Shown in pieces: positions 23,393-46,725 of a stretch of DNA of 64,000 nucleotides; position 1 is the stretch's first letter; every line of letters starts with the position of its first letter. The stretch is taken from NCBI RefSeq assembly GCF_004765795.1, contig NZ_SBIV01000006.1, positions 186,001 through 250,000 of the forward strand, given 5' to 3'. Made by a program: the position numbers and the translations under genes. A model generated the notes under the pieces. That model did not search any database and was not told where the DNA came from. It worked only from the letters and a program-made list of their open reading frames with translations. Source of the DNA: Halorussus marinus. Its GTDB lineage: Archaea > Halobacteriota > Halobacteria > Halobacteriales > Haladaptataceae.

Positions 23393-23557
23393 ATCGAGCG
23401 TTCCAAACGATTTCGCGGGTCCTGCCGGGCATGCGGCCCTCCGGGCCGTTCCGGGCGGGCTTCCACCGTCCAAGGCCGACGGACCTCACCCCGGACTTCA
23501 CCGGCAGGGTGCGCTCAATCCAATCCCGGCCCGCAAACTCGCCCGTGCCCCAGAACA

Positions 23558-24586
23558 ATGGCACGAAACTCTCCCGACAACAGGCTTGAACCCCTCACAC
23601 CACGCGACGCAGTGGATCTGTACAAACAAGACCGTGAACGCGAACTCTCAGACGCGACCCTGCAGTCACACGGATACAGACTACAACGCTTCGTGGAATG
23701 GTGCGACCAAGAAGAGATTGACAACTTGAACGACATCACCGGCCGCGATGTTCAACGCTTCAAAATATTCCGGAAACAGAAGGTGAGCGATGTCACGCTT
23801 AAATCTAACCTGGACACACTCCGTGTCTTCCTCAGATTCGCTGTCAGCATCAACGCGTGTATCGACGGCCTCGATGAAACGGTCAACTCCCCCAGTTTAG
23901 CTGACCCGGGCGCGCAAGGCACCGACACGGTCCCCCGACAGAAGGCCGAGCAGATCCTGAAGTACCTCGATAAGTACCAGTACGCGTCCCTACAACACGT
24001 CATCTTCCGGATCCTCTGGGAGACCGGGATGCGGATGGGCGCAGCACGAGCAATCGACCTGCAACACTACCACCCGCGAGACGAATACATCGAACTCCGA
24101 CACAACCCAGACACCGACACCCCACTGAAGAACAAGCGAAAAGGGGAGCGGGCAGTCGCAATCAGCACGCGGACCTGCAGGATCATCGATGACCACATCG
24201 AACACCACCGTCACGACGTACAGGACGACCACCGCAGAGACCCGCTTTTAACAACGAAACACGGTAGAATCACGAAGAACACGATCCGACTCAACGTGTA
24301 CCGAGTCACCCGGCCGTGTACGTTTAACGGCGGTGACTGTCCGCATGACCGCGACACGGACGAGTGCGAAGCAATGGATAACATGGCTGCGAGCAAATGC
24401 CCGTCTAGCACTGCTCCGCACTCGATTCGACACGGAGCGATTACTGACTACTTATCGTCAGATGTCGCTGCAGACGTCGTCAGCGACCGGATGAACGTCG
24501 GTACGGACATTATTGAGGAGAGATACGATCACCGTGATTCGCGGTCGAAAATGCGGCAGCGGAGAGAACGCATCGACTGGCTGTAA
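23558..24586 (+). CDS. Tyrosine recombinase/integrase (tRNA-targeting, SNJ2-like)
   Basis: ETGMRMG (R), LKNK (K), HSIRH, ERYD (Y); ATG at 23558 within the 22616 ORF. Confidence 0.92.
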   Translation: MARNSPDNRLEPLTPRDAVDLYKQDRERELSDATLQSHGYRLQRFVEWCDQEEIDNLNDITGRDVQRFKIFRKQKVSDVTLKSNLDTLRVFLRFAVSINACIDGLDETVNSPSLADPGAQGTDTVPRQKAEQILKYLDKYQYASLQHVIFRILWETGMRMGAARAIDLQHYHPRDEYIELRHNPDTDTPLKNKRKGERAVAISTRTCRIIDDHIEHHRHDVQDDHRRDPLLTTKHGRITKNTIRLNVYRVTRPCTFNGGDCPHDRDTDECEAMDNMAASKCPSSTAPHSIRHGAITDYLSSDVAADVVSDRMNVGTDIIEERYDHRDSRSKMRQRRERIDWL

Positions 24587-27977: not shown

Positions 27978-28145
27978 ATGACATACGACTCACAAGGTAA
28001 TAAGAGTGGTTGCATCGAAGCCGAAACTGACGTCGGATCAGACCGTGAGGAATTGGTTGCTGACGGTGGTCGTGACGTCGAAGAACACCACAGTAACGAT
28101 GACCGTCTCCAGCTCCGTGACCCAGTAAACGGGGGTGAAGAGTAG
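27978..28145 (+). CDS. Small acidic protein with LVADGG motif, first gene of the replication operon
   Basis: GGAGGT SD before the ATG; stop overlaps the next GTG. Confidence 0.55.
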   Translation: MTYDSQGNKSGCIEAETDVGSDREELVADGGRDVEEHHSNDDRLQLRDPVNGGEE

Positions 28146-29413
28146 TGGCAACGGAGAGTCAGCCGGACGACATCAGCATGCCGGACACGGACACACCAAC
28201 CGCCCGGCTCAACGCAGCATTCGAGACGTACCTGAACGACGTGAAAGACGCGGACAACGCAGGGACCGCGATGAAGTTGTGTCTCGATGCTGCAGAGGAC
28301 TTCGCCGAGTTAGAAGTCGAAGCCAGTGACGACAACACCGGCAGTATCCACGCGATGGCGAAAGCCTACCTGAACCAGCTGTCAGATTCGAAGAACGGTG
28401 TTGCGCGGAAGAACGTGCGGAAACACTGGTTGGACAAGATTGACGAGTTGGAAAAGAAGCAAAAGCTCGCAGACGGTGAAGACGTCTGGTTCAGTCAGAT
28501 CATCAGCAACCACCTAGTTGCTGTGACGAAGAAGGTGAACACGGACCGGTCAAGCACGGAAGAGACCGAGTACGTATTGGAATTCGATGCCGGCCCGAAC
28601 CTCACCGTCACGCAGTCAGTGCTGTTCGATCGGCGGAAGCTGTGGAAGGCGTACACGAGTTCGCGGGAAGGTGAGTATCCGGATCGGCGTGACGATGACG
28701 ACGACGATCGTGATGCCTGGGATAACCTGATGGGGAGCATCATCGAGCAGATCGGTGAAGACGTCGAACGCGAACACGGGCCGCGGACAGCAGCACTGCA
28801 GAGCTTAGAAGACTACGTGTCCAACACGACCGCGTACGGGAACCGGCAGGACACGGTTGAGAACGGTGGCGTGTACGTCGATACAGAACCGCCAGGGCAC
28901 GATGAGGTAGTGGTGCCCCGCGAAGCGATTGCATCGATCACGAACACGCACGAGATCACTGACCGTGCGCTGCAGTCGGAGATTGCAGCGCGTGGCCTGT
29001 CAGGACCATCGACCGCTGGGAAGACAGTGTCGCAGTCAACGACGGTGCACGGGAACTGGCAGACGTTCTGGTACCTCGATGGAGACCATTTCGACGAGGT
29101 TGGTGACTACAAGGAAGAAGCCGATGACCCCATCGACCGGATGCCCGATGCTCCCGGTGACGACGACAACGATGACGACAGTGCCGGTGATGCGAACGCG
29201 TCCGGTGGCAACGACGATGATGACAGCAGTGACGGCGGGTCAGTTGCAGACACGACCACCAGCAACACCGGTGACACTGACGGTGGTAGTGAAGTTGTAA
29301 ACGACACCACCAGCCAGTCCAACACGGGGTCTGACGGGGGTAGCGACGATGACGGTGACAGTGAACCCGGGAAAATCGGCTCTTACGGCCCCGACACGGG
29401 GGGTGATGCGTGA
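28145..29413 (+). CDS. Replication-associated hypothetical protein with acidic low-complexity tail
   Basis: 422 aa; GGGGTGA SD; coupled to the helicase gene. Confidence 0.8.
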   Translation: MATESQPDDISMPDTDTPTARLNAAFETYLNDVKDADNAGTAMKLCLDAAEDFAELEVEASDDNTGSIHAMAKAYLNQLSDSKNGVARKNVRKHWLDKIDELEKKQKLADGEDVWFSQIISNHLVAVTKKVNTDRSSTEETEYVLEFDAGPNLTVTQSVLFDRRKLWKAYTSSREGEYPDRRDDDDDDRDAWDNLMGSIIEQIGEDVEREHGPRTAALQSLEDYVSNTTAYGNRQDTVENGGVYVDTEPPGHDEVVVPREAIASITNTHEITDRALQSEIAARGLSGPSTAGKTVSQSTTVHGNWQTFWYLDGDHFDEVGDYKEEADDPIDRMPDAPGDDDNDDDSAGDANASGGNDDDDSSDGGSVADTTTSNTGDTDGGSEVVNDTTSQSNTGSDGGSDDDGDSEPGKIGSYGPDTGGDA

Positions 29414-31575
29414 TGCCCCGGGAAGCAACCAACTACGATGCAGCGACGGACTACGAGGACGCGAAGCCCCCAGCAGCTGTCCGCGAAGGACTACCAGACG
29501 AACTCAAGGACGCCCGCATCAAAGGCGCGGAGACGCACCCGGTCACTGACAGTGTCCGCCTCAACGGCCCGCCTGGCGTGGGGAAGACCACGCAGGTGTG
29601 CCTGCGGCTCGCAGTGCTCATCGAGACCCACGATGTCGATCCCGGCGATATTACAATCGTGACGTACCGTCGGTCACTCGCCGGAGAAATCACAGAACGG
29701 CTCCAGTCGTGGGGAATCCTCGATGACGACACTGACCCGGAGATGTGGACGACAGCGCACGCAGTCGCAAACCGCGTTACCGGGCTGCTGTCCCGTGATA
29801 AAGCCGACTACAAGCAGAACAGCGGCCGCGGACTCGGGCCTGCAGTCACGGCATTCGAACAGTCGTGCTTCTGCCGCGAGGTGCTCAACGTTCAGTACTG
29901 GGCCCCGCAGCCGTGGGAGACAACGCGCGGACAGTTACTGTTCGACGTGTTCGAGTACGCTGCGAACAACCTGTTAGACGTTCACGACGAAAGTGACCTG
30001 TTCGATATCCCGGCGTACGAAGACCTCCGCGAGGAGTGGCCCGGGGTGGACGTCGGCACACTGCATGACCGGTGGGAGGAGTTCAAAGACAGTCAGGACT
30101 TAGTTGAGTTCTCAGAGCTCCTCGATGCCGCCGTTGACGGTCCGCTGCCACCGAGTGAGGTAGTTGTCGTGGACGAGTACCACGACGCGTACCCAGCGCT
30201 CGCACGAGTCGCTGAACGGTGGGTTGACGCGGCCAACACGGCAATCGTGGCAGGCGACCCGTTGCAGGTTGTTAACGCCTACGCTGGCGCGGACCCCCGG
30301 TTCTTCACGGATCGGATGGACCACCTGCCGGAGGTGCTCCTCGATAAGTCGTGGCGGGTGCCGGAAGAACACTGGCAGGCGGCGACGCGGATGCTGCAGA
30401 AGGAGTTCGAAACCCCTCCAATCGACCGTCACGGACGTGGAGAGATTCACGAGTACGAGTCGCCGGAGTTCCAGTACGCACAGGGTGCTGGGTGGACCGC
30501 CCCGTCGGCGAATCAGCCCGGGTCACCGGGCGCGTTAGTAGACGAGTACATCGCCGGTACCGACAGTGACATGCTGTTGCTGGCGAGGACGCAGAAACAA
30601 GCGCAGGGCGTCAGCGCCGCCCTCGACCGCGACGGTATCGTGCACGAGACACAGGACGTGGACGACGTCGGCGGATGGACAGAACACCGTCTCAACACGC
30701 TGAACGCGGTCCTGAAGCTGGCTGTCGTGCCCGGGTCGTACGGGCAGGACAGTAGCCAGTACGGTCTGCAGAAGTACGGTGATGCAGCTGCAGAGCTCCG
30801 GCTCACGACTGACGGGACGGCAGCGATCCTTCAGCACGCGCACGGCGGGACGCTTGACTTGACGTCGGACGAGGTTGACCAGAGGATTGAGTCGCTCCGT
30901 GACGACGACACGGACCGAACAGTGACTGCAGACGACCTTGATGGCCTTGTCACCCCGGCGTTCTGGCGGAAGTACACGGACGGGTCGGCATCGGTGAAAC
31001 GGCTCACGAAGGCCGGTGAATTCGAGGATGAAGACCTGAAAGCACTGCAGAACGCCGCCGTCAGGTACGACGACCCCGTGCCGGCGGATGCGTTGAAGAA
31101 CGTCCGTGTGCTCACCATTCACGCCAGCAAAGGCAGTGAAGCGACGGACGTCGTGATTTACGATGGGATCACATCCACGATCGCCACCGAGATGGAACGG
31201 TCACGGGAGACACGGGAGAATGAAGCCCGGACGTGGTATGTCGGTCTCACACGGTCGAGCGAACGGTTGCACATCATGCGCGGAGGTTTCTCGTGGATGC
31301 AGCCGCACCTCCCGCGAGACATCGCGCCCGTGGCAGCGGCAGCTGCCGAACGCGCCACCACGGATGATACCGGCACGGACTCCGGCACTGACACGGTCGG
31401 GAGCACTGACGAGCCGGTTGACCCCGTGGAGCTGTACGCGGCTCAGTACGACGGTGAGGGCGCGGTGTCAGTTGCAGGACGCGTGTCCCGGGCAGTCAGT
31501 GGAGACGTGAACGTATCGGACCTGAAGGCGCGCGTTGAAGCTGCCCGTTCGGACGGGGGTGGTGCCGATGCGTGA
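29410..31575 (+). CDS. UvrD/Rep-like superfamily 1 helicase
   Basis: GPPGVGKT, DEYHD, GDPLQ, SWR, TIHASKGSE, YVGLTRS. Confidence 0.9.
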   Translation: MMPREATNYDAATDYEDAKPPAAVREGLPDELKDARIKGAETHPVTDSVRLNGPPGVGKTTQVCLRLAVLIETHDVDPGDITIVTYRRSLAGEITERLQSWGILDDDTDPEMWTTAHAVANRVTGLLSRDKADYKQNSGRGLGPAVTAFEQSCFCREVLNVQYWAPQPWETTRGQLLFDVFEYAANNLLDVHDESDLFDIPAYEDLREEWPGVDVGTLHDRWEEFKDSQDLVEFSELLDAAVDGPLPPSEVVVVDEYHDAYPALARVAERWVDAANTAIVAGDPLQVVNAYAGADPRFFTDRMDHLPEVLLDKSWRVPEEHWQAATRMLQKEFETPPIDRHGRGEIHEYESPEFQYAQGAGWTAPSANQPGSPGALVDEYIAGTDSDMLLLARTQKQAQGVSAALDRDGIVHETQDVDDVGGWTEHRLNTLNAVLKLAVVPGSYGQDSSQYGLQKYGDAAAELRLTTDGTAAILQHAHGGTLDLTSDEVDQRIESLRDDDTDRTVTADDLDGLVTPAFWRKYTDGSASVKRLTKAGEFEDEDLKALQNAAVRYDDPVPADALKNVRVLTIHASKGSEATDVVIYDGITSTIATEMERSRETRENEARTWYVGLTRSSERLHIMRGGFSWMQPHLPRDIAPVAAAAAERATTDDTGTDSGTDTVGSTDEPVDPVELYAAQYDGEGAVSVAGRVSRAVSGDVNVSDLKARVEAARSDGGGADA

Positions 31576-32920
31576 AATGTTCCGCGAACTGGAACGCGCG
31601 GAGAGCGCGGTTGAAGTCGTTGAGGTGGGCAAAGAGTACGTCACACTGGATGTCCCTGAGTCAGTGCACGATGCGCCGCGAGCGGTGCCGTACGAACTGG
31701 TAGAGTTCGGGCAAGACGCCCGGAACTGGTTCGTGTGGGACATGGCGGAGAAGCAGCCGCGCGCCCCGCACAACGGCGGCTACGCTGGGAAAGTACAGTG
31801 GGGGCGACCGAATGTGGCCTGGGATAACCGCGCCGGAGGGACGTTCGAGAACGTGATGGACGCCCTTGACGGGAATATAAACGGACACGTCGCTGACAGT
31901 TGGCGGTGGGGAACCGTGGAAGACGAACACGGGAACGAGGTTCCGGAGGAACCCCGTGAACTGTACCCGATGGCGATTGTTCCGCACGCGGACTTCAGCC
32001 CGGAGCCGGGGTTGATGTTCTTCGACTTCGACGACGTCGTCGAACTGCAGGGCGACGGGACGGCGGTGATGACACGGGAAGTGTGGGGCATCATTCAGCG
32101 GCTTGATTGCTACGCTGAACTAAGCACGTCGTTGTCGGGCGTTCACTGCTTTGCGCTCGGTGAAATGCCGGCGCGGGTTGATGGGAAGAAGGTCCTGAAA
32201 GACCTGAGTCAGTCGCTCCCGGGCGGGGAAGTCGGTCACATCGAGATCTACGGGTACCCCGCGAACGGTCGTGTGATGGGGACGACGTGGATGCATATCG
32301 ATGCTACTCCCCGTCACACTGTTACGGAGCGGCAGGAGACGATCGACGCGCTTGCCGACGAACTGTTGGATGAAGAAGACACGATCACTGACGGTGAGCA
32401 GGCTCAACAGGCGTTTGACGAACGGACGGACGTGGACCACGGTAACACCGGTGGCGGGTCGAAGTCGGCGTACTACGGGCTCAATCCGGAGGTTATCGCT
32501 GACACGGGCCCGTTCAGCAGGCATGGTCGGAACGGGCAGGGCCCGCACCCAACCCACGGTGGCACCAGCACCCCGGATTCGGAGTCTACGAACTTCGGCG
32601 TGGACGCCGATGACGGGTGGAAGTGCTGGGCTCACGACGACGGTGGCGGTGCCCTGCAACTCATTGCAGTCATCGAAGACATCCGGCAGTGTGGAAATGC
32701 GTCTGACGTGATGGGCGACCCGATCGATGCGTTTCGAGTATGCTTGGCGGCGCGGGACAAGCACGCCAGCGCTGCATTGGAGGGTGAGAACCCGCCAACC
32801 CAGGCGCTCCGGGGTGTGTTGGAGGTTCAGGGCGTGGACTACAACGAAGACGGGCGGTTGTCGAAGGCGAACTATGCGTTAGCGATTGGGCTGTTCGAGG
32901 AAATGGAGTACACGGGGTGA
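31568..32920 (+). CDS. Primase-polymerase (AEP Prim-Pol) with C-terminal Cys/His module
   Basis: FFDFDDV (DxD), ELSTSLSGVH (SxSxxGxH), HIEIY; HPTH...WKCWAH; ATG overlaps the helicase end. Confidence 0.8.
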   Translation: MREMFRELERAESAVEVVEVGKEYVTLDVPESVHDAPRAVPYELVEFGQDARNWFVWDMAEKQPRAPHNGGYAGKVQWGRPNVAWDNRAGGTFENVMDALDGNINGHVADSWRWGTVEDEHGNEVPEEPRELYPMAIVPHADFSPEPGLMFFDFDDVVELQGDGTAVMTREVWGIIQRLDCYAELSTSLSGVHCFALGEMPARVDGKKVLKDLSQSLPGGEVGHIEIYGYPANGRVMGTTWMHIDATPRHTVTERQETIDALADELLDEEDTITDGEQAQQAFDERTDVDHGNTGGGSKSAYYGLNPEVIADTGPFSRHGRNGQGPHPTHGGTSTPDSESTNFGVDADDGWKCWAHDDGGGALQLIAVIEDIRQCGNASDVMGDPIDAFRVCLAARDKHASAALEGENPPTQALRGVLEVQGVDYNEDGRLSKANYALAIGLFEEMEYTG

Positions 32921-32926
32921 ACGAGA

Positions 32927-33562
32927 TTGTCAACAACTGATTCAACGACGACGACGGCGACGTGGCAGTCGAACCGCGCGAGAGACTTGACGCGGTCAGA
33001 GGCTGCGCTCATCAGCTCGCACTGGAGCGAGGTAACGCAGTATCTCGTCCCGCCAGGAATCGCGTGGCAGTGGGGTGAATGCGCAATCTCGCATAAGGTG
33101 AAGTACAACTGGAAAGAAGACGGGCTCATCCGACGCGCGCCGGGCGGCAGACGGTGGTTGACGACGGAGACGCTGTGGCTGCATGTGATCGCCCGCGCGG
33201 ACGACGACGAAGTCGTTGGTGCGCGTGCACAGGGACAGCAGGTTCTCGATGCCCCGGCGAAGACAGGGAGTTCGCGTGTCCTCGCTGACGACACGTCGAT
33301 TCCGTCCCGGCGGGTGCAATCGACGCTGACGGGTGACACCGCGGACCGGCAGACTGTTCGGTCACAGCATGAGCCGGATTGGACGGTTGTCAATGCTCGG
33401 AAGGGCATGCACGGTGAAGACGACGGTCGTGAGGATGCCGCTCGGCACCCGGGTCAGTCGCGCTTGTCAACCTTCGAGGACTACGACCGATCGAACTGGG
33501 ATGTGACGACGCCGTGGTTCCGTTCGAGTGCAGTGACGGTTCCGGCCGGTCAGGTGTACTGA
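32927..33562 (+). CDS. Hypothetical protein, last gene of the replication operon
   Basis: GGGGTGA SD then TTG start; followed by a T-tract at about 33575. Confidence 0.6.
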   Translation: MSTTDSTTTTATWQSNRARDLTRSEAALISSHWSEVTQYLVPPGIAWQWGECAISHKVKYNWKEDGLIRRAPGGRRWLTTETLWLHVIARADDDEVVGARAQGQQVLDAPAKTGSSRVLADDTSIPSRRVQSTLTGDTADRQTVRSQHEPDWTVVNARKGMHGEDDGREDAARHPGQSRLSTFEDYDRSNWDVTTPWFRSSAVTVPAGQVY

Positions 33563-34079
33563 CCCGAGGCACTGTTTTTCGCGCCGGGTTCATTTACATT
33601 GATTGCTGATTCGGGTGTTACGGAGGGTTGTACCGCGTGTTTTCCGCAGATGCACACTTTCTGCATAACACTACTGCAGAGGGTGTTATGTTATTGCAAG
33701 GGCGTTCAGGGACGTGTTTGACCCCCGTGACACTCCGAATCAATGCAATTCCAGTCGTTGCAAGAGACTTCACAGTCCAGATCCGCCCCGTCCTGTTACA
33801 TTGATCCAGGATTTAGGTGTTACGCGGCTTGATGTCGGTGTTTTCGGGATAATCACACTTTCTTCAGTGCTGTTTCACAGTGTTCTGGGGGTAACACTGA
33901 TCCTGACCGCGACCCGCCCGGTGTTGTCAATCGAAGAACTCTCTGACGGTGTCGATGCGACACTCCCGCGTGGCGCGCTAAAGGAGAGTGTTGGTGTATA
34001 GTGTGCGCGCGACCGATCGAGCGACCGGGCAGCGGGTAAGATTCCGATCAATGAAGTGGGTATAACACGTAGACTGAAT

Positions 34080-34175
<96 letters not shown>

Positions 34176-34648
34176 CTCATTCGGACCGCCGGAGGTACGG
34201 CGGTCCATACATTCGGACGGGCAAACAGACGCACACCCGACCGTACACGGAGACGGACGTAAGTACGTACACGAGCACGTACACTGCGGTGTACACGACT
34301 ACGAACACAGACACTCAATGGCGGACGCGTCTACGTACCGGGGGGACGATGGGTGTGCTTCCACTCGCATACGTTTTTACCGCCACGTACGCCGGTTTTC
34401 ATTTGGTATCCGCGCGAACGGTGTTACCTCTCTTATCTGTGTAATCCCCCTACCTGAGAGTATAGCGTGTCATAGAAATAGCCACAGCCGACTCGATGCG
34501 GTGCAAACGGATGGGGCGATATGTTGGACTGAGTATGATTACAGAAGGCAGTGCAAGATATAGAGAATCTATTCAGCAGATGTCAGCACTCGTTTCTCCG
34601 CTAATCAAATGAATTAACTGGCAACACAGACTGTGGAAGTGAAAACCT

Positions 34649-34798
34649 CTACTCGCCGCCGACAATTTCCTCAAGTTCCTCTCGCAGCGCTTCTAACTCC
34701 TTATGGCTTGAGTCGCTAATCTCTGAATTCGACGAACTCTCTTGGAATTGCGGCGTGTAGTCTGGGTCGTCCTCGGACGGCCAGTTTGGGGAAACCAT
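34649..34798 (-). CDS. 49-aa acidic peptide ending in GGE (Pup-like)
   Basis: Manual translation MVSPNWPSEDDPDYTPQFQESSSNSEISDSSHKELEALREELEEIVGGE*; AGGTGA SD 5 nt before the ATG, overlapping the upstream stop. Confidence 0.7.
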   Translation of the reverse strand: MVSPNWPSEDDPDYTPQFQESSSNSEISDSSHKELEALREELEEIVGGE

Positions 34799-34803
34799 AT
34801 CTT

Positions 34804-35613
34804 TCACCTAAGTGGATCTATGTCGGCATCGTTGATAGTATTTTCCCGAGCGGTACGTTCTGCCTCACGAACGTCTTCGATTACATTTTGGATGGTTTTG
34901 ATACGGTCGGTGTCAAGGAAACTAACCTTATCGCCAACTACCGCAATGTCCATTTTGTCGCCTACACCCTGCGCTTCACCGGCCTGATTCTTTGCATCAG
35001 CTGCCAGCATTAGTGCATCCTCAAGATTTTCGGGATCGTATCCATTCCGCATGAACGTCAGACTCGCAGAGCCGGCACCCGAACCAATACACTGAAATCC
35101 GAGTGAACGGTGTCGGGTAAGACTCCCGTCTCGAAGTTCGAGTATCTGAGCGCCATGATCGTCATCGACGCCTGCGATGAGCATATTTGTTCCTCCCTGA
35201 ATGTCCTGCTTAAGATCACTGATCTGTGACATAAATTCAGTGACCATATCGTCGCTCAGTGGAACACCTTGATTCGTTAATTGATTTAGGGTCAGGTCGT
35301 AGTCTGCCAGAATCTTATTGTTCGCCTCGTCACGAACAATCGCGTGAATCTCGTCAACGAAGAGTTCACCAACTGCTTGAACTGTATCAGGCGATTCCTC
35401 AATGATTCGATTCCCTACTCGATAGTAAAGTTCGTCTGCGTATGAGAGCGTTCCTGCAGCGACAGCTGCCACAGCGGGGTTTCCAGCGGACACCATCTCA
35501 AGTTTGCCGTCAGAATGTTCGTGCTCAACCGCCCCTGTCGTTACCATTCGGTCTGCTATTAATACTACAGCTGGATCATCGCCGTTGTATGCGGCACCAA
35601 TTCCAACAGTCAT
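34804..35613 (-). CDS. Proteasome beta-subunit-like Ntn hydrolase without propeptide
   Basis: M-T-VGIG start (Thr1), IAD (Asp17-like), GKL (Lys33-like), MLIAGVD, CIGSG (Ser129-like), GVGDKMDIAVV. Confidence 0.8.
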   Translation of the reverse strand: MTVGIGAAYNGDDPAVVLIADRMVTTGAVEHEHSDGKLEMVSAGNPAVAAVAAGTLSYADELYYRVGNRIIEESPDTVQAVGELFVDEIHAIVRDEANNKILADYDLTLNQLTNQGVPLSDDMVTEFMSQISDLKQDIQGGTNMLIAGVDDDHGAQILELRDGSLTRHRSLGFQCIGSGAGSASLTFMRNGYDPENLEDALMLAADAKNQAGEAQGVGDKMDIAVVGDKVSFLDTDRIKTIQNVIEDVREAERTARENTINDADIDPLR

Positions 35614-35775
35614 TGTATATTATGTAAAAGCCAACTTAGTTAAATATGGCTTCTGAATTAACCGATTAACTTGTCCTCGGTACTGACCGATACGCGCCCT
35701 GTATCTTGCACGCGAGTCCTAACAAGACTGGGACAGGAACTGCGTGCGAAGCTTTCTATGACACGCTATGAGAGT

Positions 35776-35964
35776 ATGCAACCAGGGTTCATTGGGGGAA
35801 TCCCCGGGAGAATTGAAATAGGAGGAGTGTTGATTCTCGGAATATTACTCTTCGGTGCAGATCGAATCCCACGGCTCGCTCGCAGTGTAGGCGAATCGAT
35901 AGGCGAGCTCCGATGCGGGCGGGAGACGATTGAGGATGAACTGCAGGACGATGACGAAGACTGA
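35776..35964 (+). CDS. TatA/E-like small protein, possibly degenerate
   Basis: GIPG..E...ILLFGADRIPRLARSVGESIGE.R. Confidence 0.7.
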   Translation: MQPGFIGGIPGRIEIGGVLILGILLFGADRIPRLARSVGESIGELRCGRETIEDELQDDDED

Positions 35965-36127: not shown

Positions 36128-36280
36128 GGCGCGTAACACGTAATATGACCGCGGTCCGGATTCGTGTTACCCCTTTCGGAGTTCCGGACACACCCCCTCC
36201 CTGAGACAAGGAAAACTAATCTATTCCATACCGGCAAGGAAAGTGCCCTCTTTGATAAGAGCACACCGGTTAGATTGGGT

Positions 36281-37000
36281 ATGGCCGAAACACCCTCCCA
36301 GAACACTGCAGCCTACGTCCGAGTCAGCACAGCTGACCAAGACGCCGAACGCCAACGCGAATCAATCCTCAACGAATACGACGAAGACACGATCGACTGG
36401 TTCGTGGACATCGAGTCCGGGGCGTCACTCTCCCGTGACCAATACAACGACATGCGCGAGTCCATCGATGACTACGACGTCATCACCGCAACTGAGATCG
36501 ACCGGCTCGGCCGATCGTTCAGCGAGCTCGCATCTTTTGTGGAAGAGCTCCGGCAGAAAGACATCGGGCTCAACCTCACACAGCAACCCATCGACACGAC
36601 TAACGAAGACGACTGGATGGCTGATATGTTGTTGAACATGCTGATAGTGCTGGCAGACGCTGAACGCAAGATGATTCAGGACCGCGTGCAGCAGGGTGTG
36701 GATAAGGCGATGCGAGATGGGAAGCGCGTTGGCCGCCCACCGTTCGGGTACGACGTCGAAGACGGGTTTATGTACCAGGACCCAGCAGAATACAACCGCG
36801 CCCAGAACTTCATCAGGGAAGTCAAGAAAGGACGTGCGAAGAGCACGACAGCGGATTATTTCGAAATTCCCCAGTCCGCGGTACAGTCCATCTTGAAGCG
36901 TTCACATCAAAACTACGAAATCCCGTTCGACAACGACTTGTGGACGATCGAACGAGCGAAGGTCGAAGCCGGGGAGAAACTGTTAGAACCGCTCGAATAG
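36281..37000 (+). CDS. Serine recombinase (resolvase family)
   Basis: AAYVRVSTADQ catalytic Ser, ESG, DRLGRS, GRPPFGY. Confidence 0.92.
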   Translation: MAETPSQNTAAYVRVSTADQDAERQRESILNEYDEDTIDWFVDIESGASLSRDQYNDMRESIDDYDVITATEIDRLGRSFSELASFVEELRQKDIGLNLTQQPIDTTNEDDWMADMLLNMLIVLADAERKMIQDRVQQGVDKAMRDGKRVGRPPFGYDVEDGFMYQDPAEYNRAQNFIREVKKGRAKSTTADYFEIPQSAVQSILKRSHQNYEIPFDNDLWTIERAKVEAGEKLLEPLE

Positions 37001-37135: not shown

Positions 37136-37494
37136 GTCCATCCGTTAGTCCGACATCCATGGCTGACACACGCACGTACGTAAGGACGCGCGTACGTGAT
37201 GATGTACGTGATCACGTACGTACCTGAGTACGTATGTCGATCTACCCGGACGAACCTACCTGTCTCGGTATTTACGAACACAAAAGAACAATCGAGTCTG
37301 TGCGTAACAGACACTGTACCGCAGCTACCCTGTTGAGTACGACGGAGAAAGCATGCCAGTTTGATGTGTCGAGGTACGTCAGTCTCATAAATCCAAGACT
37401 GGCCGTCGTGGTATGTAGTGTACGCTGAACCTATCGACCCACTAAGCAACTGAATATGCTACCTTTGAAGGCAGTAGGAGCGCGTCGACAAACT

Positions 37495-37585
37495 GCCGCC
37501 CGTAGGGGCGGCGTTCCCGGAAAGAGAGAAAGAGAGAGAGAGAGAGAGAGAGTGAACGGGTTCCGGTCCGTGGTGGGGCCGTGAC
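37495..37585 (+). repeat. Hairpin-TTCCCGG-(GA)n-GTGA-CCGGT-CGTGGTGGG element, copy 2
   Basis: Stem GCCGCCC/GGGCGGC at 37495-37512; purine tract 37521-37552; same orientation as copy 1. Confidence 0.8.
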
Positions 37586-37621
37586 CCACTCCCGGCCGTA
37601 ATGGCGTGCGGCCAGTCACTC

Positions 37622-37849: not shown

Positions 37850-39079
37850 ATGAGTGACTCGTCGGACGACTATACGCTTGAGGATGCACAAGACGAAGTC
37901 GGAATTCTTCGCCGTGTAACCGACGACGTCGTCGAAGCGATCCAGAATGCAGAGAACGAAGACGTACTGGAGTTCCTGATCGAAGACGAGAAACTCGACG
38001 TGATCCACGACGGGAAGCGTGGGCTGGGTCGGGTTCGATGTGCTGTGCTTGAGTCCCCACTGGCTTCAGACCGCCTCAAGCGCGTCGTGAGCCTCCGGGG
38101 TGACGAAACACCTGCAGAGATACTCGTCCCAAACGACGTTGAGCGGAACGCGAAAGTCGCGCTGGAAGCGGGCAAGCCAGTCGTCCTGTATGGGCCAACC
38201 GGGACAGGGAAGACGACGTTTGCTAAGCAACTCGCTCGTGAAACCGGAATCGGATACACCCTCAACACTGCCACTCCCTCGTGGACGCCGTCGGACATCA
38301 TCGGTGGAATTAGTCCGGATTACACCGGCGACTCGCTAAGCTACCGGACGAAACTCGGTTGCGTGTCCGAAGCCGTTCAGCGTGCTCGCCGGTTCGATGT
38401 CGAATACGGCGTCATCCTTGATGAGATTACGCGAGCAGACATATCGAAGATATTTGGTCCACTGTACACCGCCATCGAGAACCCACACCAAACCATCTTT
38501 GAGACCGACGAAGGTGAGACTATTGAGCTGGACGAGCGGGTGAACATCATCTGTACGATGAACATGTCCGACCGGACGGTGAACGAACTCGATAACGCCA
38601 TCACCCGCCGGTTCGCCATGATTGAGGTTAACGAGTACGAGGAAGACAAGCGCCGACAGCTGTTCAAAGATTGGATCACCACGCACGTTACCGACCACAC
38701 GGACCTCGGTGAAAGCGAGATCCTCCGCCTGTTCGAGCGGGACTACCAGGGAATCAATCACGGCCACGAATCGACGTCGCAAGGATCGATTATGCGGTTC
38801 GGTCCGATGCACTACCGCGACGTCGCCGTCTTCCTCGGCGTCGGCTGTCGGGAAGGTGGAGAGTACGAGTACGACCAGACAGACGCAGTCGGACAGGCAT
38901 TCCGGACATACATCGTGCCGCGACTCCTGAACGCCGCCGCATTCCCACAGATCGAGCGGATCGCGGAACACTACCGCGCGATGAATGGCGAGTTCGAGGA
39001 GTTCGATCTCGCCCCTGCTGCCGAGCTCGCTGAACGGGAACTCGAACAGGAACGACGTCAGATGGGCTCCTACGAGTAA
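37850..39079 (+). CDS. McrB-like AAA+ GTPase with short N-terminus
   Basis: GPTGTGKT, LDEITRAD, TMNMSD (NxxD), AITRRF. Confidence 0.9.
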   Translation: MSDSSDDYTLEDAQDEVGILRRVTDDVVEAIQNAENEDVLEFLIEDEKLDVIHDGKRGLGRVRCAVLESPLASDRLKRVVSLRGDETPAEILVPNDVERNAKVALEAGKPVVLYGPTGTGKTTFAKQLARETGIGYTLNTATPSWTPSDIIGGISPDYTGDSLSYRTKLGCVSEAVQRARRFDVEYGVILDEITRADISKIFGPLYTAIENPHQTIFETDEGETIELDERVNIICTMNMSDRTVNELDNAITRRFAMIEVNEYEEDKRRQLFKDWITTHVTDHTDLGESEILRLFERDYQGINHGHESTSQGSIMRFGPMHYRDVAVFLGVGCREGGEYEYDQTDAVGQAFRTYIVPRLLNAAAFPQIERIAEHYRAMNGEFEEFDLAPAAELAERELEQERRQMGSYE

Positions 39080-40836
39080 TGAGCACCGTTGACGAAGTCT
39101 ACGAGTACGGGCAGGACACCTTCAACGTCCCCGAACGCGGGGAGATCCGCATAGAAGGCTGTCCGTCGTCCATCGGGGACCAACTTCGTCGCGCGTCCTT
39201 CACACAGGAAAGTCCCGGCGTCTTCACGAAGAGCCAAGCAGCACTCGATGGCGAGCAAGAGTACGAGGTCGTCACGGTCACCGTAGACGGCGACCAAAAC
39301 GAAGTACTCCACGTTGAAGCGACAGACATCATCGGCGTCGTGAGTCTCACGCCGTCGTCGAAGGTACAGGTCGATCCAAAAATCGACTGGGAGCACATCT
39401 TCGACATGCTGCTGGCCGTCTACGACCAGAACCGTTCCATCGAGTATCACGGGATTCCGCTTCAGGACTTCCTCTCCGACGACATCCATCTCGACGACGT
39501 CTTCGTGGTGCTGGCGATCAACTACCTCGACGGGTTAGAAACGATTCACCGGCAGGGGTACATCCGCGACCTGGTGATCCGTCGGCTCGACAGTCTCGAT
39601 GGGCGTGGGGAGATCGACGTCGAACAAACGCTGTTGAACCACGGGCGTGGGACGTTGGAGCCACACTGGATCCGAAACGAGACCGAGTACGACAACGCTG
39701 CGAACTCGCTCCTCCATTACGCAGGGAAGACACTCCTTCGACTCTTCCGACAGAACTCCCACGAGAACGACCACCCTGCATACGATCGAATCTTCTCCGA
39801 AGTACACCGCGAAGTGGAGCGTCTGGAGAGTATGGGTGTCAGCAGCGGGTTGGATCGGATGGAAGAGTATCGACGCCTCTCGCTCAGCGACCTTCCGAAG
39901 CAGCGACGGTACTACCAGAAGGCGTTCGATGTCGCCAAGGCGGTGATGTCATCGTCGCTCGGCCAGCAACTCCGTGACGGCCCACGAGAGCTGGTCGTGG
40001 ACTACGTCCTGAATATGGAGTCGCTGTTCGAGCAATACTCCCAGGTCGTCATCGAGCGCGAACTCTCGTACATCAAGTCCTACGACCACCTCGGCGACCT
40101 CGACGACGTGACACCCGTCCGGTCACCATCGGTGAACCCGTTCGAGGGTGAAGGGCAAATATACCACGAACCGGACCACGCGCTACAGGAAGGTGACGAG
40201 ACACTGGCTGTACTGGATTCGAAATACTACGCAGAGGGTCACGATCCCGTGAAGGAATCGCCGTCCAGATCACGGCTCTTCAGTTACGCGTATCTGCTCC
40301 ACTCCGATCGACTCGCGTTCCTGTGTCCGCTTCTCGAACCGAAGCGTCGGCGAGTCACACAGACAGATGCCGAGCTGCAGATCGTTTCGCCCGAGCAGGA
40401 GTTTACGTTGAGTGGGTACGGCGACGTCGTCCACGACTATCTGCACGACGTACTCGTTCGCAAGTCTGCTGAACTCGAAGCCTTCCGGGCTGTCGCGGAA
40501 AACCGACTGTGTCTCGATGGCGTCGAAGAGACGGACCTGAGCGACGCGAAGTCGATGAGCGGTCCGTTCACGTTCAAGGATGCTCGGGATTTCTCCTTGC
40601 GTGTGCTCAAGGCTGCTGCCGACGAACACTCCTGGGAGGTCCGAAACCGGTACGACCTAGAGCAAGATGGCGACTGGACACGAGAGCAGATCGAAACGCG
40701 GTGTGAACAGCGCTACGAGCATACGACGACGTGCGTACCGGTGTTCTGTCGTGAACAGGGACAAGAGTGGATTGACCTCTACTTCCTAGGCGGAGGAGGA
40801 GACGTTGAGAAGGAAGGCCCATTGAAGCTTTTATAG
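39079..40836 (+). CDS. McrC-like PD-(D/E)xK nuclease subunit with C-terminal extension
   Basis: GVVSL...VDPKI, RGEID, NMESLFE, EPD...LDSKYY; TAATG overlap with mcrB. Confidence 0.85.
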   Translation: MSTVDEVYEYGQDTFNVPERGEIRIEGCPSSIGDQLRRASFTQESPGVFTKSQAALDGEQEYEVVTVTVDGDQNEVLHVEATDIIGVVSLTPSSKVQVDPKIDWEHIFDMLLAVYDQNRSIEYHGIPLQDFLSDDIHLDDVFVVLAINYLDGLETIHRQGYIRDLVIRRLDSLDGRGEIDVEQTLLNHGRGTLEPHWIRNETEYDNAANSLLHYAGKTLLRLFRQNSHENDHPAYDRIFSEVHREVERLESMGVSSGLDRMEEYRRLSLSDLPKQRRYYQKAFDVAKAVMSSSLGQQLRDGPRELVVDYVLNMESLFEQYSQVVIERELSYIKSYDHLGDLDDVTPVRSPSVNPFEGEGQIYHEPDHALQEGDETLAVLDSKYYAEGHDPVKESPSRSRLFSYAYLLHSDRLAFLCPLLEPKRRRVTQTDAELQIVSPEQEFTLSGYGDVVHDYLHDVLVRKSAELEAFRAVAENRLCLDGVEETDLSDAKSMSGPFTFKDARDFSLRVLKAAADEHSWEVRNRYDLEQDGDWTREQIETRCEQRYEHTTTCVPVFCREQGQEWIDLYFLGGGGDVEKEGPLKLL

Positions 40837-45589: not shown

Positions 45590-45710
45590 TATTCAGTATG
45601 TAGAAGCGATACGCCACGAGCCACATAAGTGTGCGTTCTTCGCAGTAACATCTCAGTGAAGCGAGCTTCGTTGGGTGTCTCGAAAGGAGACGGAACGTCG
45701 AAGAAGTTGC

Positions 45711-45992
45711 CTACTCGTCGTCAGAGACGAGCGTTTCGAGGTCAGTCACGTTCTGGATGGCGTCGGATGCCAGGTCGTCATGGCCTGTCTCAATGGCGAA
45801 GCCGGCCGCCTCAGTCATTGCTTGTACCATCTGTTCCACGAACATCGAGTCATCCGTGACGTACTCTCCAGCCACCTGTAGGGCTCGCCGGCTGTCTGTC
45901 AGCGGTATTCCGACCACGTCTTCGATCTTAGCGATTATCTCTAGCGATTCGTCGATCTTCTTCGCGCGGTTGATCGTTTTTTCTGTCTGCAT
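45711..45992 (-). CDS. Small helical hypothetical protein
   Basis: 93-aa ATG ORF, acidic. Confidence 0.55.
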   Translation of the reverse strand: MQTEKTINRAKKIDESLEIIAKIEDVVGIPLTDSRRALQVAGEYVTDDSMFVEQMVQAMTEAAGFAIETGHDDLASDAIQNVTDLETLVSDDE

Positions 45993-46501
45993 AGTGGATT
46001 GGACCCGAACAACTACAACCGCCACCCGGTTTTAAAGGTAAGCCCCGGAGAGGATGGGATTAGTTTGGTACTCGTTTCCCGAATCGCTACGGCCCGGCAA
46101 AGTGCTCAGAGATACATTGCTTTGCGGGATAAGACGACTGTGCGCTCCAGAAGAGGTGGACAAGAAGACACACAGAGTTCTGAAATCGTCCCTGTTTCTA
46201 ACAGTGGTGCGAAGCTGTTCGACGCTATATCTTGATGGGCTCTCAATGAATTGTCTGTGAATACACGACGGAGCGGAGGTTTGCCTCCAAAGCGTATCAA
46301 CGCGAGCCATGCCACGGATTCATTAGAGAATCGCACGATTGCTGAGCGTGGCAAGTGGCTCGCAGAGCAAGCGAGTGAGGGATGGCCCGCACCGGGTTCA
46401 GAGAACTGGGACAGGTAGAATCGCACCACCACCGTTTCCCACCGAACACTGAGTTAGGCGGCAATCGAACAGGCTATCCAGCGTGCTGAGGATGGTTCGA
46501 T

Positions 46502-46714
46502 ATGGCCGATTTGCTGGAAGTACGAGAAGATGGAGACTCCGTGATTTCTGGAACAGTAAGCAGAGATGAGCTTGAAGCGGAACTAACACCGCTGAACCCA
46601 CGCAGTTTGTTCGATAGACGACTGAAGACCGCTCTGAGGGATATGCTGGATGAGGCGGACGGTGACGAAATTGTCGTCGAAGCCTTAGTCAGAAACGCGG
46701 ACGCCGACCAGTAG
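46502..46714 (+). CDS. Small acidic protein or 3' remnant of a decayed gene
   Basis: 70-aa acidic ORF. Confidence 0.4.
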   Translation: MADLLEVREDGDSVISGTVSRDELEAELTPLNPRSLFDRRLKTALRDMLDEADGDEIVVEALVRNADADQ

Positions 46715-46725
46715 AAGAAGCGGAA

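What the first reader, a model, noticed from the sequence alone, without database searches (positions are those of the whole stretch)
34649..35613. Proteasome-beta-like Ntn hydrolase coupled to a Pup-like peptide ending in GGE: candidate new protein-tagging system on a mobile element
Seen in sequence: a 269-aa ORF starting Met-Thr with proteasome-beta landmarks (Thr1, AD, K, IGSG). It has no propeptide, carries an apparent helical insertion and tail, and has GVG where DxxSGG is expected. Its stop codon forms an AGGTGA Shine-Dalgarno for a 49-aa ORF, missed by the ORF track, that is acidic, Ser/Pro-rich then helical, and ends ...EELEEIVGGE*. Established: actinobacterial Pup is a small disordered acidic protein ending GGE/GGQ encoded beside proteasome genes; haloarchaea normally use ubiquitin-fold SAMPs ending in GG; Connectase is a stand-alone proteasome-beta homolog that ligates proteins. 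Inference: a two-gene module in which the hydrolase processes or conjugates the peptide, or is inhibited by it (toxin/antitoxin-like), possibly anti-viral given the nearby defence island. No PafA/Dop ligase or alpha subunit is present in the window.
Basis: partly seen in the sequence, partly recalled or inferred. Interest (0 to 1): 0.88.

Follow-up and report, generated by a model that had tools for sequence, protein, structure and literature searches.

The report
Proteasome-like protease with conserved mini-partner
A stand-alone proteasome-like protease gene and the tiny acidic gene behind it form a two-gene unit that recurs from salt-loving archaea to soil bacteria, but the tiny protein is not a Pup-like tag, because its GGE ending is not conserved.

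Summary
A 269-aa ORF (34804-35613) has a proteasome-subunit fold with Thr1, Asp, Lys and GSG in register, no propeptide, a helical insertion and a long C-terminal helix. A 49-aa acidic ORF (34649-34798) starts 5 nt after an AGGTGA that contains the first gene's stop.

The small ORF is a real gene. Its dN/dS is 0.10-0.44, and DNA similarity to relatives ends at its stop codon. A small same-strand ORF follows the hydrolase in 52 of 55 related loci, is the only conserved neighbour, and tracks the hydrolase tree.

GG-E ends only 2 of 12 close relatives, other clades end differently (for example RDLSPLGR), there is no Pup Pfam match, and the genome has no PafA/Dop.

The hydrolase belongs to the orphan group II proteasome homologs catalogued in 2021, for which no gene context was reported. 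My best reading (about 0.4) is a protease plus a co-translated, mostly disordered binding partner that gates or inhibits it. Rivals are an assembly subunit, a Connectase-like ligation substrate, or a toxin/antitoxin-like defence cassette.

The unit lies in a tRNA-Pro genomic island beside McrBC-like and DISARM-like genes. It is patchily distributed, found in 8 of 401 genomes sampled from its class.

The parts
34804..35613 (-). 269-aa stand-alone proteasome-beta-type Ntn (Thr1) hydrolase. It has no propeptide, a helical insertion at about residues 78-141, and a long C-terminal helix at 235-262.
   Evidence: ORF. Pfam PF00227 at 24.8 bits. AF2 pLDDT 90.3. Foldseek and VIA matches to 20S subunits. 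Invariant T2, D21, R22, K37, G54, G177-S178-G179, K208, G216-V217-G218 and D222 in 30 relatives. Thr1/Asp17/Lys33 in register with M. jannaschii beta.
34804..34809 (-). AGGTGA: a Shine-Dalgarno-like hexamer that contains the hydrolase stop codon TGA, 5 nt upstream of the small ORF's ATG (translational coupling).
   Evidence: Read from sequence. AGGTGA or AGGTAA is kept in the close relatives L001, L009, L010, L011 and L013. Its function is inferred.
34649..34798 (-). 49-aa acidic partner protein. It has a constrained N-terminal motif (MVSPNWPSxDDPDYTP), a variable Ser-rich linker, an amphipathic acidic helix (residues 30-47), and ends in Glu.
   Evidence: ORF. Nine database homologs, all 49 aa. 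dN/dS 0.10-0.44. Helix prediction. DNA similarity to relatives stops exactly at 34649.
35614..35712 (-). Upstream region kept with the module in the closest relative. It is A/T-rich with TATA-like TTTAAC and TTTTACATAA about 15-35 nt before the ATG: a putative archaeal promoter with a near-leaderless start.
   Evidence: Sequence only. blastn similarity to L001 runs to 35712. Not tested.
34558..34648 (-). Downstream region kept with the module in the closest relative. A TTTT run (34642-34645) lies 3 nt after the stop: a possible archaeal terminator.
   Evidence: Sequence only. blastn similarity to L001 runs to 34558. Not tested.

Best explanation
The locus is a self-contained two-gene operon.

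Gene 1 encodes an active-looking, stand-alone proteasome-beta-type threonine hydrolase. It belongs to the orphan 'group II' proteasome homologs, and by its features it is most like PHI, the 'proteasome homolog with helical insertion'. Removal of the initiator Met would expose Thr1. The Asp/Lys/GSG network is kept. A helical insertion of about 60 residues and a long C-terminal helix are added.

Gene 2 is translationally coupled to gene 1. It encodes a 49-aa, strongly acidic, mostly disordered protein with one amphipathic helix.

Shown:
- The fold and catalytic residues of gene 1.
- Gene 2 is under purifying selection.
- The pair moves as a unit.
- A small helix-plus-tail ORF follows the hydrolase almost everywhere in the family and co-diverges with it.
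- No other neighbour is conserved.

Inferred: the small protein is the enzyme's dedicated binding partner. Its helix docks on the enzyme, on the insertion or the C-terminal helix. Its conserved Pro-containing linear motif lies in or over the substrate cleft. It would then act as a trans-acting propeptide, inhibitor or gate (perhaps the first substrate) for a protease that has no propeptide of its own.

It is not a Pup-like conjugation tag.

The patchy distribution and island context suggest an accessory, possibly conflict-related, role. This is not shown.
For: Fold and active site. Of 207 homologs longer than 200 aa, 168 start directly with M-T-[VIL]-[GC], so the family as a whole lacks a propeptide.

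The small ORF is coding.

The module is a unit. blastn similarity of six related loci to the window spans exactly 35613..34649 (34648 or 34642 in two), and 35712..34558 for the 93%-identical Haloarcula argentinensis copy.

Conserved neighbour. In an all-against-all comparison of 2201 ORFs from 60 loci, the only cross-locus clusters not overlapping the hydrolase were the downstream small ORFs, in 13, 7 and 4 loci.

Presence.
- By my reading of the translations, 52 of 55 loci have a small same-strand ORF starting at or near the stop. This is 47 of 50 after removing duplicate contigs.
- By a purely mechanical rule, 47 of 55 qualify, against 61 of 154 (40%) for other long ORFs in the same loci.
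- All 9 places found in 8 of 401 genomes of the same class have one.

Co-divergence. The partner types are clades on the hydrolase tree: B1 16 rows 99/96, H1 6 rows 100/99, B3 3 rows 100/97.

Common build. Each partner has one amphipathic helix plus an extended, Pro-containing tail with a clade-specific motif: MVSPNWP or MPHLDPP at the N-terminus in haloarchaea, and RDLSP[LF]GR at the C-terminus in 14 actinobacterial-type loci.

Coupling. Stop/start overlaps (ATGA, GTGA) or gaps of 3-12 nt occur in most loci.
Against: - No binding, expression or activity data exist.
- Partner proteins of different clades share no detectable sequence similarity (hhalign probability 0.08%). They could be unrelated ORFs that happen to occupy the same position.
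- Small ORFs in that position are common by chance in these GC-rich sequences (40%). Outside the three BLAST-supported groups, my assignment rests on reading the translations.
- The catalytic cleft is strongly conserved across the family (18 invariant positions), while the partner's motif is not. This argues that the partner is not the family's common substrate.
- The exactly conserved termini fit a docking or ligation signal at least as well as an inhibitor. Terminal Glu occurs in 12 of 12 close relatives, and the protein ends right after G-R/K in 11 of 14 of the actinobacterial type.
- The gene order, enzyme first, is the less common one for toxin-antitoxin pairs.
Confidence: 0.4

Rival explanations
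1. Assembly or structural subunit. The small protein is a stoichiometric part of the complex: an Ump1/POMP-like assembly chaperone, or a cap on the helical insertions. It would be needed to build or stabilise an oligomer rather than to inhibit it.
For: Translational coupling and near-universal co-occurrence with co-divergence are typical of obligate subunits. Fuchs et al. [quoted passage not shown] That Ump1 is a small, largely disordered proteasome assembly factor is recalled knowledge, not from a call.
Against: No sequence conservation of the partner between clades, although the enzyme surface is conserved. The oligomeric state was not tested here.
Confidence: 0.2
2. Toxin/antitoxin-like or abortive-infection cassette. 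The free protease harms the cell, and the labile disordered partner neutralises it. Loss of the partner, for example on translation shut-off by a virus, unleashes proteolysis.
For: Window context:
- A tRNA-Pro/integrase genomic island of low GC.
- McrBC-like genes, and a DISARM-like set comprising a DUF1156 methylase, DUF499, an SNF2 helicase and a DEAD helicase with an MZB domain.

Other haloarchaeal copies lie beside HEPN_LA2681, Schlafen/AlbA_2, McrB-like AAA_5, an MmeI-like methylase, a resolvase and an integrase. Some bacterial copies lie beside transposases, a YhcG nuclease, a SLOG protein and HNH.

Distribution is patchy: 8 of 401 genomes of the class, 0 of 6 other genomes of the same genus, and two copies in one genome. 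In the Actinomycetota sample only the seed genome of 401 has it.
Against: - No match to 5027 PADLOC models.
- Several copies sit among housekeeping genes: GroES/EL, TsaD, eIF6, SRP54.
- No copy was found in viral contigs, phage records or plasmids.
- The partner shows no DNA-binding domain.
- Toxicity is untested.
Confidence: 0.2
3. Dedicated substrate of a Connectase-like transpeptidase or processing enzyme. The Thr1 enzyme cleaves within the partner's clade-specific X-Pro motif. It then either releases a mature peptide or ligates the partner to another protein.
For: - Each clade has a short, strongly constrained Pro-containing motif at a fixed terminus: VSPNWP, HLDPP, DLSPLGR.
- Exact protein ends are conserved.
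- Connectase shows that proteasome homologs can be sequence-specific ligases (PMC7980362, abstract seen).
- That the Connectase motif contains a D-P scissile bond is recalled, not from a call.
Against: - Structurally the enzyme is far closer to beta subunits (Z 22-23.5) and Anbu (20.6) than to Connectase (12.7).
- It keeps the H1/H2 helices that Connectase lacks.
- The motif is N-terminal in archaea but C-terminal in bacteria.
- No target protein is evident in the neighbourhood.
Confidence: 0.1
4. Pup-like or ubiquitin-like tag. The small protein is conjugated through its C-terminal GGE to targets for degradation.
For: It is small, acidic and disordered with a helix, and lies next to a proteasome-type gene. 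The terminal Glu is invariant in 12 of 12 close relatives.
Against: - GG-E ends only 2 of 12 close relatives, and other clades end in L, I, V, P, R and others.
- No Pup Pfam match at E<=1.
- No PafA/Dop family hit in the 99.97%-complete genome, while the control genome Corynebacterium glutamicum scored.
- No beta-grasp fold.
Confidence: 0.04
5. The small ORFs are not one functional class. Only the close haloarchaeal and the actinobacterial groups are real genes, and elsewhere the downstream ORFs are chance reading frames.
For: The chance background is 40%. There is no cross-clade similarity. Several groups (my B2, B4, Hx) were assigned by eye.
Against: - Similarity within the small groups is visible: L006/L023/L004, L022/L025/L031/L039, L026/L047 and L053/L054/L056.
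- Stop-start overlaps recur.
- The three loci with no candidate are among the longest branches of the tree (L008 2.98, L029 1.6, L002 1.01).
Confidence: 0.06

Closest known systems
[quoted passage not shown]
   Same: - Stand-alone prokaryotic proteasome homolog, about equally similar to alpha and beta subunits.
- No propeptide.
- Long helical insertion after H1/H2.
- Long C-terminal helix H5.
- Found in both archaea and bacteria, with no AAA+ partner nearby.
   Different: - Cluster membership could not be tested, because the paper's sequences and cluster map were not available.
- Table 1 lists PHI without Actinobacteria, whereas this family includes Actinomycetota MAGs. PMI-4 has that range, but it is described with an H3/H4 insertion that this model lacks.
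[quoted passage not shown] Here a conserved small downstream gene is found.
20S proteasome beta subunit (archaeal PsmB; PF00227)
   Same: Same fold (Z 22-23.5, rmsd about 2 A over about 180 residues). Thr1, Asp17, Lys33 and Ser129 (GSG) equivalents are in register.
   Different: - No propeptide.
- GVG in place of Asp166/Ser169-Gly170.
- An insertion of about 60 residues.
- No alpha partner.
- NCBIfam proteasome models score far below their cut-offs (20.8 against 219 bits).
- The genome has its three canonical subunits elsewhere.
Anbu, HslV and BPH (bacterial proteasome homologs)
   Same: Single-gene Thr1 proteases without a propeptide. Anbu aligns over 213 residues including the long C-terminal helix (Z 20.6). 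HslV gives Z 18.7 and BPH Z 17.3.
   Different: There is no ATP-grasp/transglutaminase operon like that of Anbu (recalled) and no HslU. The helical insertion is absent from those proteins. None of them has a reported small co-translated partner, as far as the papers listed show (listing and abstracts only).
Connectase (MJ0548 / M. mazei; PMC7980362)
   Same: A monomeric proteasome homolog that acts on one specific peptide motif. This is the precedent for a proteasome-like enzyme with a dedicated protein substrate.
   Different: Weak structural match (Z 12.7 over 134 residues). Connectase lacks H1/H2 and has an S3/S4 two-helix lid. This protein has H1/H2 and no such lid.
Pup (prokaryotic ubiquitin-like protein)
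   Same: A small, acidic, intrinsically disordered protein with a helix-forming segment, encoded next to proteasome-type genes. In the window copy alone it has a GGE end.
   Different: - No sequence-family match.
- GG is not conserved (2 of 12).
- No PafA/Dop.
- The gene lies downstream of, and is coupled to, a single stand-alone hydrolase rather than upstream of prcBA (the prcBA arrangement is recalled).
PI31 / Ump1-type disordered proteasome binders (analogy only; recalled knowledge)
   Same: Small or Pro-rich disordered polypeptides that occupy proteasome interiors or active sites as inhibitors or assembly factors. This is the mechanism I propose for the partner.
   Different: These are eukaryotic, with no sequence relation. 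Nothing was tested here.

Membership tests
Proteasome-like Ntn hydrolases (PF00227 superfamily) | alpha-beta-beta-alpha Ntn fold of proteasome subunits | tested here: met
   AF2 pLDDT 90.3. Foldseek E about 1e-12 to 20S subunits. VIA Z up to 23.5. Pfam 24.8 bits against a 22.4 cut-off.
Proteasome-like Ntn hydrolases (PF00227 superfamily) | Catalytic Thr1, Asp17, Lys33 and Ser129 (GSG) | tested here: met
   T2, D21, K37 and G177-S178-G179 are invariant in 30 of 30 relatives. They are in register with M. jannaschii beta in the profile alignment. Model residue 2 aligns to residue 1 of mature beta subunits.
Proteasome-like Ntn hydrolases (PF00227 superfamily) | Asp166 / Ser169-Gly170 (DxxSGG) supporting network | tested here: not met
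   Replaced by an invariant G-V-G followed by D222.
Canonical 20S beta subunit | N-terminal propeptide removed autocatalytically, and a paired alpha subunit | tested here: not met
   The protein starts M-T, as do 168 of 207 homologs. No alpha gene is in the window. Canonical subunits are on other contigs. NCBIfam scores are far below their cut-offs.
PHI (Fuchs et al. 2021) | Long helical insertion after H1/H2, with H5 often coiled-coil | tested here: met
   Model helices at 78-105, 109-115 and 121-141 lie between H1 and strand 142-150. H5 spans 235-262.
PHI (Fuchs et al. 2021) | Falls in the PHI sequence cluster (representative WP_012956871.1) | not testable with these tools
   The sequences and cluster map are not held. 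A search of the supplement found nothing.
Connectase | Lacks H1/H2 and has a two-helix S3/S4 lid | tested here: not met
   H1/H2 are present and there is no S3/S4 insertion. Z is only 12.7.
Pup | Match to the Pup family | tested here: not met
   No Pup hit at E<=1. The only hit was DUF6779 at E 0.083.
Pup | Conserved C-terminal GG[QE] | tested here: not met
   GGE ends 2 of 12 distinct close relatives. Other clades end otherwise.
Pup | PafA/Dop ligase or deamidase in the genome | tested here: not met
   PF03136 gave 0 matches in the 99.97%-complete genome, while the control genome scored.
SAMP / ubiquitin-like modifiers | Beta-grasp fold with a C-terminal GG | tested here: not met
   49 aa with no strands and one helix. 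GG is not conserved.
Known anti-phage defence systems (PADLOC-DB 2.0) | Match to a catalogued defence protein model | tested here: not met
   Neither protein matched any model.
Type II toxin-antitoxin module | Toxic protein neutralised by a cognate labile partner | not testable with these tools
   Only context and the bicistronic layout are available.

The most novel reading that the evidence does not exclude
The pair is a ligase-free protein-tagging or peptide-ligation system of the Connectase type. The Thr1 enzyme would recognise the partner's clade-specific terminal X-Pro motif (VSPNWP, HLDPP or DLSPLGR-COOH), form an acyl-enzyme, and transfer the small acidic protein onto target proteins or itself. 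The system would be carried on genomic islands of archaea and bacteria.
Probability: 0.07. Interest if true: 0.9.

Novelty: new variant of a known kind. Interest (0 to 1): 0.6.

Why it matters
The 2021 catalogue of 22 new proteasome-homolog families states that no gene context hinted at their function. In the library searched I found no later paper giving one.

A small partner gene that is co-translated, co-diverging and nearly always present gives one of these orphan families its first testable handle. Co-expression, pull-down, activity with and without the partner, and a structure are all straightforward.

If the partner gates or inhibits the enzyme, it would be a prokaryotic counterpart of the disordered proteasome regulators. 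If the cassette turns out to be toxic or protective, it would add a protease-based module to archaeal defence islands. If the enzyme ligates, it would be a second natural Connectase-like tool.

The finding also corrects an attractive but wrong lead: an archaeal Pup.

Tried and rejected
- **Complex prediction** of the pair with alignments A1 and A2: score 0.06, no verdict, so not used either way.
- **Sequencing-run search**: no RNA holder listed.
- **Longer (fused) forms** of the hydrolase: none. A scan of 207 stored homologs for partner motifs inside them found none. The long C-terminal tails of 12 longer relatives are low-complexity and not partner-like.
- **Viral contigs, phage records and plasmids**: no relative found.
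- **PADLOC**: no hit.
- **Cross-clade partner comparison.** Profile-profile comparison of the haloarchaeal and actinobacterial partner alignments: no similarity.
- **Family and structure look-ups for the partner.**
  - Pfam and PDB searches with the actinobacterial partner: nothing.
  - Atlas look-alikes of the small protein: scores of 0.81-0.85, below the level worth following.
- **Earlier findings** by place and by sequence: none.
- **Conserved third gene**: none. The TatA-like gene, the small HTH-like ORF and the resolvase next to the window copy are not conserved with the module.
- **Sampling Actinomycetota genomes** for more loci: only the seed genome matched.
- **The GTG start** (52 aa) was rejected in favour of the ATG (49 aa), because relatives lack the GTG.
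Full report
**1. What is there**

Both ORFs lie on the minus strand.

The 269-aa ORF spans 35613 to 34804 and starts MTVGIG. The hexamer AGGTGA (34809-34804) contains its stop codon TGA. Five bases further on, an ATG at 34798 opens a 49-codon ORF that ends at 34649.

The alternative GTG start, which overlaps the stop and would give 52 aa, is not conserved. The closest relative has TAA at that place.

Upstream of the first gene is an A/T-rich stretch with TATA-like words. A TTTT run follows the second gene. These were read from the sequence only.

**2. The enzyme**

- Pfam gives PF00227 (Proteasome) just above its cut-off, on the C-terminal half only (24.8 against 22.4 bits).
- NCBIfam proteasome models are far below their cut-offs.
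- An AF2 model built on a 30-sequence alignment is confident (pLDDT 90.3, pTM 0.85).
- The model matches 20S alpha and beta subunits by Foldseek at E about 1e-12.
- An all-against-representatives structural search gave these Z-scores:

| Match | Z |
|---|---|
| 20S beta subunits | 22-23.5 |
| Anbu | 20.6 |
| HslV | 18.7 |
| BPH | 17.3 |
| Connectase | 12.7 |

- In that search, model residue 2 aligns to residue 1 of mature beta subunits.
- In 30 relatives spanning 23-93% identity, these positions are invariant: T2, D21, R22, E30, E32, K37, G54, G177-S178-G179, K208, G216-V217-G218 and D222.
- A profile of that alignment against PDB sequences puts Thr1, Asp17 and Lys33 in register with M. jannaschii beta. 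It also shows GVG where beta subunits have Ser169-Gly170.
- The model has a helical insertion (helices 78-105, 109-115, 121-141) after H1/H2, and a 28-residue C-terminal helix.
- Of 207 stored homologs over 200 aa, 168 start directly M-T-[VIL]-[GC], so the family has no propeptide.

**3. The small ORF is a real gene**

- Nine database homologs exist and all are 49 aa. One is annotated by NCBI in Haloarcula argentinensis.
- Among six copies, dN/dS is 0.10-0.44 in the 13 of 15 pairs that could be computed.
- The first 18 codons carry 111 of their 129 substitutions at third positions. The middle of the protein (codons 19-32) evolves freely.
- AF2 predicts no secondary structure for residues 1-29 and a helix for 30-47.
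- blastn similarity between the window and six related loci runs from the first gene's start (35613) to the second gene's stop (34649, or 34648 and 34642 in two). It reaches about 100 bp further on each side only in the 93%-identical H. argentinensis copy. The two genes therefore travel together, and the flanks do not.

**4. The pair is conserved across the family**

The family is large: 4868 50%-identity clusters at E<=1e-3 and 1031 at E<=1e-30.

I fetched 8 genome loci and 52 metagenome loci. They include Haloarcula, Halorubrum, Natronoarchaeum, Omnitrophota, Acidimicrobiales and other Actinomycetota.

An all-against-all comparison of 2201 ORFs from these 60 loci found one kind of conserved neighbour only: small ORFs directly downstream, in clusters of 13, 7 and 4 loci.

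I read the translations of 55 loci. I left out L014 (frameshifted, with N), L021 (cut at the gene end) and L058-L060 (partial matches). I see a same-strand small ORF at the stop in 52 of the 55, which is 47 of 50 after removing five duplicate contigs. None is evident in L002, L008 or L029.

A mechanical rule gives 47 of 55, against 61 of 154 for other long ORFs in the same loci. The rule requires a complete ORF of 40-85 aa starting between -75 and +45 of the stop. Presence alone is therefore weak evidence, and the sequence conservation within groups is what counts.

A sample of 401 genomes of the window's class found the hydrolase in 8, including the window's own genome, and in none of 6 other genomes of the same genus. 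All 9 places have a small acidic ORF behind the hydrolase. In one of them (L069) the hydrolase itself is frameshifted.

On a maximum-likelihood tree of 47 hydrolases, the partner types form clades: B1 99/96, H1 100/99 and B3 100/97. The three loci with no candidate have long branches, including the two longest. I left out duplicates, partial genes, and L016, L031, L032 and L035. The types were defined by me from the partner sequences, and related sequences share labels, so this shows co-inheritance and nothing more.

**5. What the partners look like**

| Group | Loci | Features |
|---|---|---|
| Close haloarchaeal (H1) | window, L001, L009-L013 | MVSPNWPS[ED][DE]DPDY[TS]P, a variable linker, then [DE]LExL[RQ]E[ED]Lxx[IL]xxxE |
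| Second haloarchaeal (H2) | L003, L017-L020 | Starts MPH[LIV][DNQ][PV]P and ends with an acidic helix |
| Other haloarchaeal copies | L066-L070 | Carry [DE][DE]LL[DS]EL |
| Actinobacterial type (B1) | 14 loci | A DPxxAxxLxLxEAEYLRxQ helix, and a tail ending [RL]D[LMV]SP[LF]G[RK]; the protein stops right there in 11 of 14 |
| Other bacterial groups | B2, B3, B4 | A similar amphipathic helix with Pro-rich or basic tails |

Profiles of the haloarchaeal and actinobacterial partners show no similarity. Neither matches Pfam or PDB.

The common denominator is therefore a build: one amphipathic helix plus an extended tail with a short Pro-containing motif at a fixed end. It is not a shared sequence.

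**6. The Pup-like reading fails**

- Among 12 distinct close relatives the endings are GGE x2, GEE x2, DEE, DGE, DDE x4, TNE and AYE. The final Glu is invariant there but the glycines are not.
- Other clades end in entirely different residues.
- There is no Pup family match and no beta-grasp fold.
- There is no Pup-ligase family gene in a 99.97%-complete genome, while the control genome scored.
- The genome carries three canonical proteasome subunit genes on other contigs.

**7. Context**

The window holds a low-GC island (50-60% GC against about 70%) from about 23 kb to 61 kb. It is bounded by a tyrosine integrase (22616-24586) and tRNA-Pro (60762-60835).

The island carries:
- a UvrD-like helicase;
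- McrB-like AAA_5 and McrC genes;
- a DISARM-like set comprising a DUF1156 methylase, DUF499, an SNF2 helicase and a DEAD helicase with an MZB domain.

The two-gene unit sits in a 3.4-kb segment together with a TatA-like ORF, a small HTH-like ORF and a serine recombinase. Two direct repeats of about 190 bp containing (GA)n flank this segment, and they occur only here in the genome.

Neighbours of other copies are mixed. Some are defence or mobile genes: HEPN_LA2681, Schlafen/AlbA_2, McrB-like, an MmeI-like methylase, a resolvase, an integrase, transposases, a YhcG nuclease, SLOG and HNH. Others are plainly housekeeping: GroES/EL, TsaD, eIF6 and SRP54.

No copy was found in viral contigs, phage records or plasmids. 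PADLOC has no model for either protein.

**8. How it most likely works**

Shown:
- an intact Thr1 active site without a propeptide;
- a co-translated, selected, co-diverging small partner;
- a unit that moves on its own.

Inferred: the partner binds the enzyme through its helix and lays its constrained linear motif in or over the cleft. It would act as a trans propeptide, inhibitor or gate, and might itself be the first substrate. I put this at about 0.4.

| Rival | Confidence |
|---|---|
| Assembly or cap subunit | 0.2 |
| Toxin/antitoxin-like defence cassette (a biological role that overlaps the best reading) | 0.2 |
| Dedicated substrate of a Connectase-like ligation or processing reaction | 0.1 |
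| Small ORFs are not one functional class | 0.06 |
| Pup-like tag | 0.04 |

Points against my reading:
- There are no binding or expression data.
- There is no cross-clade similarity of the partners.
- The chance background is 40%.
- The cleft is conserved across the family while the partner motif is not.
- The exactly conserved protein ends would suit a docking or ligation signal.

**9. Comparison with what is known**

Fuchs, Alva and Lupas 2021 (PMC8665760; I read sections 3.1-3.3, section 4 and Table 1) describe 22 new proteasome-homolog families. They state that no genomic context or co-occurrence pattern was found.

By its features, the present enzyme fits their PHI: a helical insertion after H1/H2, a long H5, no H3/H4 insertion, and similarity to both alpha and beta subunits. 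Its taxonomic range also recalls PMI-4.

I could not test cluster membership. The paper's Mendeley data may settle it.

Searches of the held library for a functional or defence description of proteasome-like homologs returned nothing relevant. A 2026 review cites the catalogue only in its reference list (passages only).

Two unchecked notes from this scan describe other archaeal proteasome homologs with different partners in mobile or defence contexts. I did not test them.

**10. Verdict**

The enzyme family is already catalogued, but its function is unknown. The Pup-like tag is not supported. The conserved small partner appears to be undescribed and makes the family testable.

Noticed in passing
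window 33995-34185 and 37403-37600: Two direct repeats of about 190 bp (about 70-76% identical), each with a long (GA)n run, flank a 3.4-kb segment. The segment holds the two-gene unit, a TatA-like ORF, a small HTH-like ORF and a serine recombinase (36164-37000). These are the only copies in the genome apart from one marginal 37-bp hit. This may be a recombinase-borne cassette.
   Followed up: partly
window 22616-24586 and 60762-60835: A genomic island of about 37 kb with low GC (50-60% against about 70%), bounded by a tyrosine integrase gene and tRNA-Pro(CGG).
   Followed up: partly
window 37850-40836 and 42923-55835: A McrB-like AAA_5 gene with McrC, then a DISARM-like set: a DUF1156 methylase (42923-45589, -), a DUF499 protein (46726-49965, -), an SNF2 helicase (49892-51829, +) and a DEAD helicase with an MZB/DUF1998-type zinc domain (53121-55835, +). 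PADLOC was not run on the DISARM-like genes.
   Followed up: partly
window 35671-35964 (+): An orphan TatA/B/E-family ORF (PF02416, E 1e-7) transcribed divergently from the hydrolase. It is not conserved with the module in other loci.
   Followed up: partly
window 28145-33562 (+): A row of overlapping or abutting ORFs (422 aa, UvrD-like 721 aa, 461 aa, 211 aa). Only the helicase has a Pfam match, and none of the three flanking ORFs scanned (not the helicase) has a PADLOC match. This may be an uncharacterised helicase-based system.
   Followed up: no
L005, L007, L032, L036-L038, L042, L043, L045, L046, L048, L052, L055, L057 (small ORF behind the hydrolase): The actinobacterial-type partners share an invariant D-x-S-P inside a C-terminal [RL]D[LMV]SP[LF]G[RK] motif, and in 11 of 14 the protein ends there. 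In L036 the frame reads on past the motif.
   Followed up: partly
L069 (G146) and L014: Two decayed copies. In L069 the hydrolase is frameshifted near codon 25 while the small ORF stays intact. L014 is a low-quality metagenome contig with frameshifts in both genes.
   Followed up: partly
L067 and L070 (both in genome G207): One haloarchaeal genome carries two divergent copies of the module, each with its own type of small partner.
   Followed up: no
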